Part shown: positions 11,502 through 14,500 of the stretch, in pieces
Numbering within the stretch: the stretch's first letter is position 1
Layout: every line of letters begins with the position of its first letter
Source: Saccostrea echinata
Lineage: Eukaryota
Assembly (NCBI RefSeq): GCF_033153115.1
Contig: NW_026889750.1
Location: 29,512,001-29,576,000, forward strand
DNA: 64,000 nt
Direction of reading: 5' to 3'
The notes under the pieces: model-generated
Databases searched by the model: none
Told to the model about the DNA's origin: nothing
What the model saw: only the letters and a program-made list of their open reading frames with translations
Made by a program: the position numbers and the translations under genes

Positions 11502-14500
11502 TGGGTAACCACATGACCACATCCAAGGAACAAGTGAGCCCTGAACAAAAGAATATGGACCCCTCAGGGGAACCACCAAATTCAGAGGTGGGAACAGAGT
11601 CTGCCTGCATCAAGGAAAAGCTGGATAATTTGATAGAAGGCTACCTGAAGTCTACAGATGCCAAATACAGTGAAAAACAGGCCTCCGAAGAAACATTTAA
11701 TAAACAGGGAATCTTATTTGACCAAAATGTTCTTAAGACAGTGCAAAAGAAGGTTGATAATAATAATAAAGAAATAGTTACTAATGGAACAAAAGAAAGC
11801 AGTAGTGAGACCATTAAAAATGGCAGTGAATGTAGTCAGGAGAAATCTACCCCTTCTAAGTCAGAGTCTGAAGAAACTTCGTCCAATGCAGCCTCCTTTG
11901 AAAGTATGATTGAGCGAGCTTTAAATGACTCGATGAAAAATACTGAGGAGACTTATGAAAAGACACATATTTTAGAAATGTGTGATGAAGATCATAAAAC
12001 TCATCCAAACAGTGACTCCGATTTCAGAAAGAGTGAAAACATGAATGATAAAGTTGGTGACGACATGAGTCTTTCTAAAAAGAATGTCATGTTTCTGAAA
12101 GATCACATTGAAAGAGTTTTAGAGAAAAACTTTCCAAGTGTAGGGAGCAAAAAAGAAGACACAAACGAGGAAGGAAAACCACCTGTAAAACCTAAATCTA
12201 AGCAGCCATTACCCGCCATAATGCCAGGACTGACACTCGAGCAGCACATGCAAAAACTCATTGACGAGCATCTGAGTAAGGAGAATTTATCTTCTGAGAG
12301 TGACTTAGCAACTCAGTCCAAGTCAAGTAGTTCTCTACAAGCATTGGGTGACCTTAAGAAAAATGTGACAACAAGCAGTGTTTACGATTCTGTTGACAGT
12401 TTAAAGTACCAATCTGCAAATGCTGTTAGCAAACCTCAGCAGATCGTCCAATCACAGTCCAAGTGTCACAGTGTAGAGACTGTGGTTGATCGCATCATAA
12501 AGAAAGCTGTTAATGATAGCTTTCCTCCTCAAAAACCACAACATCATCCAAAAGAGCACAGATGGAAAAACCTACGTGATGAAATTTATAGTGAATGTGA
12601 ATCGGATCCTCCTAAGAAACGTACTGATTATGACACAGTTGCTTTTCAAAATCATGTAGAGGAGAACAGGATGAGAAACCAGGATATGAAACATCCTCAT
12701 CAACAGAAGGTGCTGAATGCTGGGAAGGGGAATAGTCATATGGATATGTATCACACTCCACCCCAGTCTCAGTATTTCTATCCTCCCTATGTGAAACCAA
12801 ATCTACATCATCCAGCTGCTTATAAACAGGAGTCTAAGTTTGACAACAAACATGAAAATCAGTCAAAATATCTTGGATATCCAGTAAAGGGTTGTGAGAA
12901 AGGTGGAAGGCCAGTGTCTGGTAGTGACAGTTTTCAGAGGACCAGAGTGGATGTTGGTCCTCGTTCTTCTGTTGGACCTCATCACATGCATGACATTCAT
13001 ATGATGCCACATATGAATTCACATTATCCTCCCTCAGACAAATCAAAATACCCTCATGCATCTATGGTCAGATATCCAGCTAAACCAATAGAGGATTTAC
13101 AGTCAGGTATTCCATCAGCCATGGCACCAGGTCCTTCACCACCACAACGATATTGTCATCAGAATTCTCAATTTCGGATGCCACAGCTGTATCCTAACAA
13201 CCCTCCTATACCCTCTCCAAGAGAATATTTTAACAGTCCCACAAGCACAAAAGACCATCTCATGGTGCCTGGTAATATGTATGTAAATAACAGGAACACA
13301 GTTTCCAAGTCACCAGTAATGTCACGTTCCTCTCCAAATCACCACCCTCCCTCATCTCCCAGAAGCCCTCGTCAGCCGAGTCCATCTGTGTACCAGCAAA
13401 CTAAGCCAGAGGTGAAGCAAAGCTGGCAGAGACAAGACCTATCACCAGTTAGTCAAAATCATTCACGGAAAAGGGATTCCTCAGGACTGGATTTGTCTGT
13501 GAAGCAAACATCACAGTCTGGAAATGAGGATCAACCATTAGATCTCACTTGTAAGAGGCCAAGAGCCTCACCATCACATTTTAATTCAGGATATTCCTTA
13601 TACCCAGCTCAGATTGAAAAGCAGCATGATATATCCAAAAGTATACACATTAGTCAGTTGCAAAACAGCATGGATAAATTTTGTCAACAGGCTAGCACAG
13701 ACATGCCTGCAGGCAGATTACCTCCCCCAGTGAAAGGTCATGAACATTTTCCACCTTCTGTAATGTTGAATCATCCACACTGGCCTAATGTTCCTCACAC
13801 AGGAAACAAGCAGAATATACCACCTGTGGTGCCAAATCCTGGCCCAGAAAGACCAGAGGTGGTTCGACCTCACCCCATCCATCAGCAGCATTTACCTCGA
13901 ATGCCTATCAGGCCACCTATTACTATGCCTCACCATCTTCCCCAAGAGGCACCAGAGTCCCCAACAGATTCCAACTCCTCAGGCATCAAAAGGTCAGGAA
14001 GTGTGTCTAGACATGAACCTATTCAAAACATAATTGGGAACCACTCACCAAGTGACATTTTATATCTCATTTGTAGACTGTGTAACCAAACCTATGGAAG
14101 TCCATATGGATTTAGAAAACATTTCAGAAATCAGCATGGATTTGAACCAAGGTCTGAACACACAATTGTACAAACAATATCAGGCACTAAGGCCCTTCAA
14201 GCACCTGCCATTGGACCTCATTTTGAAATGCATGGAATGAATCAGATGGGAATACCCTCTCATCCATCTCCAAACCCAAAATGTCAGAGCCCAAGGGAGT
14301 ACTCTTCTCACAGTCATTCTCCTAACAACTATGAAAGACCACCCAGTGCTATGACTCTCAGACAGAGTGCTGGAAATGTTGGCTATTCGTCTTCAAATCA
14401 TGAAAACAGAAGACCTGAGAGCATGCCAAGCATAACAGTGAGTGAAAGTGCTGTAACTGATCCTCAGAGACCAAGTCTCAAGCCTGATGAAAAGTTGGAA

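What the first reader, a model, noticed from the sequence alone, without database searches (positions are those of the whole stretch)
11621..12511. Repeated CoRNR-box-like helices in the zinc-finger protein: candidate nuclear-receptor corepressor
Seen: five short amphipathic segments in an otherwise disordered N-terminus: LDNLIEGYL, FESMIERAL, LKDHIERVL, LEQHMQKLI, VDRIIKKAV. Established: NCoR receptor-interaction boxes read LADHICQII and LEDIIRKAL (LxxI/HIxxxI/L). Inference: with two CtBP motifs, four dispersed C2H2 fingers and a single coding exon (a layout like NRIP1/RIP140), this may be an uncharacterised lophotrochozoan corepressor linking unliganded nuclear receptors to CtBP. I do not recognise an orthologue.
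Basis: partly seen in the sequence, partly recalled or inferred. Interest (0 to 1): 0.7.

Follow-up and report, generated by a model that had tools for sequence, protein, structure and literature searches.

The report
Mollusc zinc-finger protein with corepressor-like helices
An unnamed oyster gene encodes a zinc-finger protein whose floppy front end carries five short helices, three of them kept in nearly all clam, snail and oyster relatives and one matching the motif with which known corepressors grip hormone receptors, so it likely works as an undescribed adaptor that switches receptor-bound genes off.

Summary
The five segments are at the stated places in a single-coding-exon ORF (11501-15604) of a Saccostrea-type oyster. 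All named full-length relatives are uncharacterised mollusc proteins; distant homologues occur in Octopus, a brachiopod, a bryozoan and an annelid. Only box 3 fits the strict CoRNR consensus (32 of 41 molluscs). Its profile picks the CoRNR motif-2 box as best hit in this oyster's own NCoR (P=0.004). Boxes 1, 2 and 4/5 mostly fail the consensus, and box 1 best resembles an NCoR helix upstream of the receptor-binding region whose partner I do not know. A predicted complex of box 3 with oyster Rev-erb gave only weak support. Verdict: almost surely a repressor scaffold; nuclear-receptor binding through box 3 is likely (about 0.55) but not shown. It is not an NCoR, NRIP1 or ZNF366 family member.

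The parts
11469..17425 (+). Last and only coding exon with 3' UTR (end is the last place covered by RNA contigs, not a mapped end)
   Evidence: RNA contigs start at 11467 with a loose end and run on without joints to about 17425; the loose end lies in G000:C1 at about 29492512-29492581 before a GT, giving an intron of about 30.9 kb
11501..15604 (+). ORF, 1367 aa; in-frame stop at 11492-11494 just before the ATG
   Evidence: 92% identical to Saccostrea cucullata LOC134228653; the ZF1 region has one match in the genome
11609..11647 (+).
   Evidence: assigned in 39 of 41 molluscs, strict CoRNR 0 of 39; profile's best hit is the upstream helix of oyster NCoR, rank 1 of 245,586 windows
11897..11935 (+). 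Helix B2
   Evidence: 41 of 41; Phe at position 1 in 28, strict CoRNR 2 of 41; no significant NCoR match, P=0.46
12095..12133 (+). Helix B3, the CoRNR-like box
   Evidence: 41 of 41; L1 34, H4 40, I5 41, L9 36, F13 33; strict CoRNR 32 of 41; best NCoR hit is CoRNR motif 2, P=0.004; weak predicted binding to Rev-erb LBD
12236..12274 (+). Helix B4 (extra copy, clearest in oysters)
12473..12511 (+). Helix B5 (13-residue register; counterpart of the gastropod fourth helix)
   Evidence: a helix after B3 found in 21 of 41, strict CoRNR 0 of 21
13484..13498 (+). Degenerate CtBP-type motif (Gly instead of Pro)
   Evidence: an upstream second motif in 18 of 43
13535..13549 (+). CtBP-binding motif PxDL[ST]
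   Evidence: 41 of 43 molluscs; also in the long distant homologues
13649..13690 (+).
   Evidence: L 35, E 33, S 36, V 30 of 39 rows; hydrophobic moment above 96.9% of N-terminal windows
14009..14194 (+). Extended C2H2 module (finger 1 with conserved flanks), the family's signature
   Evidence: near-invariant in molluscs; finds distant homologues; model pLDDT 78.6 with an added strand and helix; best solved matches only Z 4.5 and 4.1, zinc fingers
14531..14599 (+). C2H2 finger 2
14729..14884 (+). C2H2 fingers 3-4, tandem pair
15065..15103 (+). Conserved Ser/Asp motif of unknown use
   Evidence: three columns 35-39 of 39
15278..15295 (+).
   Evidence: HKK[FY] in 43 of 43, HKKF in 36 of 43; HKKF repression domains enrich the Smrter complex in flies (PMC9890238)
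15524..15574 (+). Conserved C-terminal motif FxW[DE]RxTRSQ of unknown partner
   Evidence: core in 41 of 43, columns

Best explanation
The gene encodes a 1367-residue, largely low-complexity zinc-finger protein conserved in molluscs that likely acts as a transcriptional repression scaffold, likely docking on nuclear-receptor ligand-binding domains through its CoRNR-like helix B3 (perhaps also its sister helices) and likely recruiting CtBP and the NCoR/Smrter-HDAC3 complex through its PxDL[ST] and HKKF motifs. Shown: the motifs, their conservation, the gene structure, and the likeness of B3 to CoRNR motif 2 of the same oyster's NCoR. Inferred from known motif families: CtBP and NCoR-complex recruitment. 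Predicted only weakly: receptor binding. Untested: whether the zinc fingers bind DNA (making it a DNA-binding repressor that cooperates with receptors) or proteins (making it a pure cofactor).
For: B3 fits the published consensus L/I-x-x-I/H-I-x-x-x-I/L (PMC4554918) in 32 of 41 molluscs; 34 of 41 N-termini hold a strict match against 2.3% of shuffles and 0 of 24 unrelated Rev-erb tails. A profile built only from B3 finds as best hit, in 1,677 residues of open frames from the oyster NCoR gene, the helix that corresponds to CoRNR motif 2 of amphioxus and acorn worm (12.1 bits, 4 of 1000 shuffles as high). The likeness extends past the 9-mer: hydrophobic at -2 and an aromatic at +13. A pooled profile's best hit among 245,586 six-frame windows of 123 kb around NCoR falls in an NCoR exon. 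CtBP motif 41 of 43 and HKK[FY] 43 of 43. Predicted complex of B3 (aa 186-217) with Saccostrea Rev-erb/E75 LBD: weak support, score 0.46, best control 0.02, runs agree in at least 69% of contacts, partner pLDDT at least 58; the mark was reached by 51 of 78 solved and 2 of 108 mismatched pairs, but at 0.60 or under by only 5 of 78 solved and by all 4 passing mismatches; a like complex is solved (3n00), so the pass may be from memory, and peptides were not calibrated.
Against: Boxes B1, B2 and B4/5 match the strict consensus in 0 of 39, 2 of 41 and 0 of 21. The NCoR helix that the pooled, B1 and B5 profiles like best lies about 600 residues upstream of CoRNR motif 1, outside the region described as receptor-binding; it is also the B3 profile's second hit (10.6 bits). 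B2 does not find motif 1 (P=0.46). The B3 profile scores a helix in the SPEN-like exon as high (12.5 bits, P=0.023), so specificity is modest. The His-Ile core is in only 1 of 33 hits in distant homologues, and no HKKF was found in the non-mollusc ones. No binding or repression experiment exists.
Confidence: 0.55

Rival explanations
1. It is a zinc-finger repressor whose repeated helices bind a non-receptor helical groove, probably the same partner as the upstream helix of invertebrate NCoR; the CoRNR match of B3 is a by-product of amphipathic pattern.
For: Three of four helix classes fail the strict consensus. B1 matches the upstream NCoR helix far better (16.3 bits, rank 1 of 245,586, 0 of 1000 shuffles) than any CoRNR box. 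All copies share acidic residues at positions 6 and 10, which the deuterostome motif-2 boxes do not show. Looser helices persist in distant homologues that lack the B3 core: 33 hits against 5.6 in shuffles.
Against: B3 keeps His4-Ile5 in 40-41 of 41, the signature of CoRNR motif 2. CoRNR motif 1 of NCoR itself starts with Ala and fails the strict consensus, so failing it does not exclude receptor binding. The upstream NCoR helix may itself be a receptor box (untested).
Confidence: 0.3
2. The helices fold on each other or on copies of the protein (oligomerisation or auto-inhibition) rather than on a partner.
For: Repeats of one amphipathic pattern with one hydrophobic face.
Against: Spacers are long, unconserved and vary from about 40 to 300 residues, as for separate linear motifs; copy number varies from 3 to 6.
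Confidence: 0.08
3. The N-terminus is an activation region whose acidic amphipathic helices bind coactivators, making the protein a dual regulator.
For: Acidic residues flank the hydrophobic positions; coactivator and corepressor motifs share a phi-x-x-phi-phi core (PMC3315023).
Against: No LxxLL anywhere in the protein; the other conserved motifs are repressive.
Confidence: 0.07

Closest known systems
NCoR/SMRT receptor-interaction region (CoRNR motifs 1, 2, 5)
   Same: Several short amphipathic helices in a disordered region; B3 resembles motif 2 in and around the core.
   Different: No SANT, GPS2-binding or C-terminal SHARP-binding part; has zinc fingers and a CtBP motif. The oyster has its own NCoR elsewhere.
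NRIP1/RIP140
   Same: Long disordered scaffold with repeated receptor-type helices and CtBP motifs (PMC1693901 introduction). ESM Atlas ranks NRIP1 clusters at 0.75 for the oyster and the abalone N-termini, a lead only.
   Different: RIP140 uses LxxLL on agonist-bound receptors; this protein has no LxxLL, no NRIP1 Pfam domains, and has C2H2 fingers.
ZNF366 (DC-SCRIPT)
   Same: C2H2 protein that represses a nuclear receptor through CtBP with two PxDLS motifs (PMC1693901).
   Different: 11 fingers, binds the receptor's DNA-binding domain, has an LxxLL; not among the named hits.
Drosophila Schnurri and other HKKF repressors
   Same: Zinc-finger repressor with several repression motifs including YLHKKF that recruits the Smrter complex (PMC9890238).
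   Different: No sequence relationship found; my pattern search did not locate the oyster Schnurri, so its helices (recalled, not checked) could not be compared.

Membership tests
CoRNR box motif | Consensus L/I-x-x-I/H-I-x-x-x-I/L, box B3 | tested here: met
   32 of 41 molluscs incl. this one
CoRNR box motif | Same consensus, boxes B1, B2, B4/5 | tested here: not met
   0 of 39, 2 of 41, 0 of 21; NCoR motif 1 also departs from it
CoRNR box motif | Conserved island in a poorly conserved region | tested here: met
CoRNR box motif | Binds the cleft of an unliganded receptor LBD | tested here: inconclusive
   weak predicted support, 0.46 against 0.02, no interface given
CoRNR box motif | Release by agonist | not testable with these tools
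   needs a binding assay
NCoR/SMRT family | SANT domains and GPS2-binding region | tested here: not met
   no such Pfam hit at E<=1; the genome's one GPS2_interact match is on another contig
NCoR/SMRT family | C-terminal SHARP-binding motif 8 | tested here: not met
   absent from the C-terminus; present in the C54 gene
NRIP1/RIP140 | LxxLL motifs | tested here: not met
   0 matches
NRIP1/RIP140 | NRIP1 repression-domain Pfam families | tested here: not met
ZNF366 | Array of 11 C2H2 fingers | tested here: not met
   4 fingers
CtBP-recruiting repressors | Conserved PxDL[ST] motif | tested here: met
   41 of 43
HKKF repression-motif proteins | Conserved HKKF motif | tested here: met
   HKK[FY] 43 of 43; function known from flies only

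The most novel reading that the evidence does not exclude
Bivalves and gastropods have a second, dedicated nuclear-receptor corepressor family unrelated to NCoR and RIP140: an array of three to five receptor-binding helices of different specificity joined to CtBP and NCoR-complex recruitment motifs and a new extended zinc-finger module. The upstream helix of invertebrate NCoR would then be an unrecognised further receptor box.
Probability: 0.35. Interest if true: 0.75.

Novelty: new variant of a known kind. Interest (0 to 1): 0.55.

Why it matters
How mollusc nuclear receptors repress genes is little covered: a search for CoRNR with invertebrate and mollusc terms gave 0 papers, and 12 gene ids of this family gave 0. 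If B3 binds receptors, this names a candidate cofactor with testable peptides for oyster Rev-erb, TR, RAR and HR96, and shows a receptor-corepressor design (helix array plus CtBP plus HKKF) assembled independently of NCoR and RIP140. If it does not, the repeat and the matching NCoR helix still mark a conserved helical motif whose partner is unknown.

Tried and rejected
PDB sequence searches with the N-terminus and with B3 found nothing at E<=10; this is uninformative, since oyster NCoR's own helices also found no NCoR peptide. The whole-family profile hit only generic zinc fingers. No profile of the helices alone was run against PDB or the whole genome, so the genome-wide ranking of the motif stays open. 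The idea that B1-B2-B3 is a collinear copy of the NCoR region was rejected: B2 does not find motif 1 (P=0.46). The SPEN-like 3461-aa exon shows no excess of pooled-profile hits (5 against 4.2 shuffled). A pattern search for HKKF genes gave 22 matches against 17 for the control and did not find Schnurri in the three loci opened. ESM Atlas: NRIP1 at 0.75 is below what shuffled proteins often reach; finger 1 returned assorted C2H2 proteins, top ZEB-like clusters sharing only 152-154 features, so no orthology is claimed. Fold searches of the finger-1 module gave no E<=0.001 and no Z>=5, which shows nothing about novelty. Earlier findings: none. Two primary CoRNR papers were not held; searches for SMRTER receptor-binding regions gave nothing useful.

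Full report
Gene and organism. The window holds one ORF of 150 aa or more, 11495-15604 on the + strand, with the first ATG at 11501 and an in-frame stop at 11492-11494. The protein (P0001, numbered from the residue after Met) is 92% identical to Saccostrea cucullata LOC134228653; its finger-1 region has one match in the 923 Mb genome. Contigs from four runs (at most three samples, two studies, RNA status guessed by the tool) begin at 11467 and cover the ORF and on to about 17425 without a listed joint. Three of them carry the same loose 5' end, which lies 19.4 kb before the window, ending at a GT donor. The 30.9 kb skip shows these are spliced transcripts, and the stop before the ATG shows a single coding exon for this splice form.

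Observation. In an alignment of 43 proteins I scored 32 distant full-length relatives (dropping the query, four close oyster sequences and six N-terminally short ones): boxes 1-4 exceed all 500 background windows; box 5 did not, because the other molluscs' fourth helix was aligned to box 4. An iterated profile shows a 13-residue repeat, hydrophobic at 1, 5, 8, 9 and 13, acidic at 6 and 10, and moves boxes 1 and 5 four residues upstream. Among 41 full-length mollusc proteins there are 3 copies in 17, 4 in 15, 5 in 8 and 6 in 1; these counts use a profile built from the same proteins and classes assigned by order, so they are descriptive, not a test.

Family. A search of 5.8 billion proteins gave 42 relatives, every named one a bivalve or gastropod protein with no informative name. 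The finger-1 region searched against 1.84 billion representatives gave 257 hits at E<=0.001, of which the best 150 were shown; I treated 38 with matches across the module as distant homologues. Of 27 hits from that search that I looked up (26 of the 38 plus a Babylonia protein), five named an organism: Lingula, Ridgeia, Watersipora, Octopus and a second Babylonia gene; 22 did not, so the range is not bounded. The distant homologues keep the finger module and, when long enough, PxDL[ST]. They give 33 helix hits against 5.6 in shuffles, or 0.77 per 1000 aa against 0.28 in 72 unrelated finger proteins; only one has the His-Ile core of box 3. HKKF appeared only in the mollusc-like ones.

Is it a CoRNR box? 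The consensus L/I-x-x-I/H-I-x-x-x-I/L is from PMC4554918 (I read parts 1-2 of 7 and the whole supplement). Box 3 fits in 32 of 41; boxes 1, 2 and 4/5 in 0 of 39, 2 of 41 and 0 of 21. A strict match is present in 34 of 41 N-termini, 2.3% of shuffles and 0 of 24 Rev-erb C-terminal tails. To compare with real boxes I fetched this oyster's NCoR (one GPS2_interact match; 123 kb). It carries clear counterparts of deuterostome motifs 1, 2 and 8. The box-3 profile ranks motif 2 first within five NCoR open frames (12.1 bits, P=0.004; rank 5 of 245,586 six-frame windows). The box-1 profile and the pooled profile rank first, in all 245,586 windows, a different NCoR helix at C54:8036805, upstream of the GSI repeats and about 600 residues before motif 1. 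Box 2 finds nothing significant (P=0.46), box 5 the upstream helix weakly (P=0.079). By eye, oyster box 2 resembles the Ciona version of motif 5, which also begins with Phe and which the paper calls incomplete. The box-3 profile also scores a helix in the SPEN-like exon at 12.5 bits (P=0.023). Four profiles were tried on two targets, so these P values are uncorrected.

Predicted complex. Box 3 (aa 186-217) was folded with the ligand-binding domain of S. cucullata Rev-erb/E75 (P0238 aa 18-254; best PDB matches NR1D1/NR1D2). Result: weak support, 0.46 against a best control of 0.02, at least 69% contact agreement, partner pLDDT at least 58, alignments not used, no interface given. The mark was reached by 51 of 78 solved and 2 of 108 mismatched pairs, but at 0.60 or under by only 5 of 78 solved and all 4 passing mismatches. 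A Rev-erb/NCoR peptide structure exists (3N00; PMC3315023 passages), so the pass may come from memory, and the controls were unrelated proteins, not amphipathic helices. It moves my odds only slightly.

Other motifs. PxDL[ST] is in 41 of 43 and HKK[FY] in 43 of 43 mollusc proteins. In Drosophila, HKKF-containing repression domains need the motif and enrich the Smrter complex (PMC9890238; passages and section 8 read). A sixth helix, a Ser/Asp motif and a C-terminal FxW[DE]RxTRSQ motif are conserved with no partner known to me. Finger 1 sits in a near-invariant 62-residue module predicted to add a strand and helices to the C2H2 core (pLDDT 78.6); its best solved matches are extended zinc fingers at low scores (Z 4.5, rmsd 2.0 over 42 residues; Kaiso Z 4.1, rmsd 3.9 over 46).

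Mechanism. Most likely the protein is brought to chromatin by its fingers or by receptors, grips an unliganded or constitutively repressing receptor with box 3, and recruits CtBP and the NCoR-HDAC3 complex. Repressor scaffold: about 0.85 (inference from motifs). Receptor binding by at least one helix: about 0.55. The main rival (0.3) is a non-receptor partner shared with the upstream NCoR helix.

Comparison and novelty. It works like an NCoR receptor-interaction region grafted on a RIP140- or ZNF366-type CtBP scaffold (PMC1693901, passages read) but fails the membership tests for all three families. Not found in print, which cover open-access main text only; gene lists in supplements were not searched and could mention these ids. 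PMC5069798, PMC3590189 and PMC11376212 were seen as passages. Novelty: new variant of a known kind. Interest 0.55.

Noticed in passing
G000:C54:8036172-8044900 (L032): This oyster's NCoR has clear CoRNR motifs 1 and 2 and motif 8 like amphioxus and acorn worm, whereas PMC5069798 says the arthropod and nematode relatives lack CoRNR boxes; the boxes therefore appear to be older than deuterostomes.
   Followed up: partly
G000:C54:8036805 (L032:805-849): An amphipathic NCoR helix upstream of the GSI repeats matches box 1 strongly; its partner and its conservation in other invertebrate NCoRs were not determined.
   Followed up: partly
P0238 and 23 relatives (alignment A2); exon in L024: Mollusc Rev-erb/E75 has a C-terminal tail of 427-1035 residues with HKKF in 24 of 24 tails, a possible second route to the NCoR complex.
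   Followed up: no
window 11472-11501 and G000:C1:29492512-29492581: The 5' leader has several upstream ATGs, one in a short frame whose stop overlaps the main start codon; possible translational control.
   Followed up: no
P0063 and P0033: Babylonia areolata has two genes of this family (LOC143276421, LOC143290534).
   Followed up: no
P0069, P0074, P0075, P0077, P0088: Bryozoan-type homologues carry a similar helix after the fingers rather than at the N-terminus.
   Followed up: no
L004:1333-2151 and L028:1057-2091: Two HR96/VDR-like ligand-binding domains are each encoded in one exon, convenient for expression tests.
   Followed up: partly
window 1300-3100, 4400-5700 and 18000-19000: High-copy transcribed repeats in the intron and downstream of the gene.
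   Followed up: no
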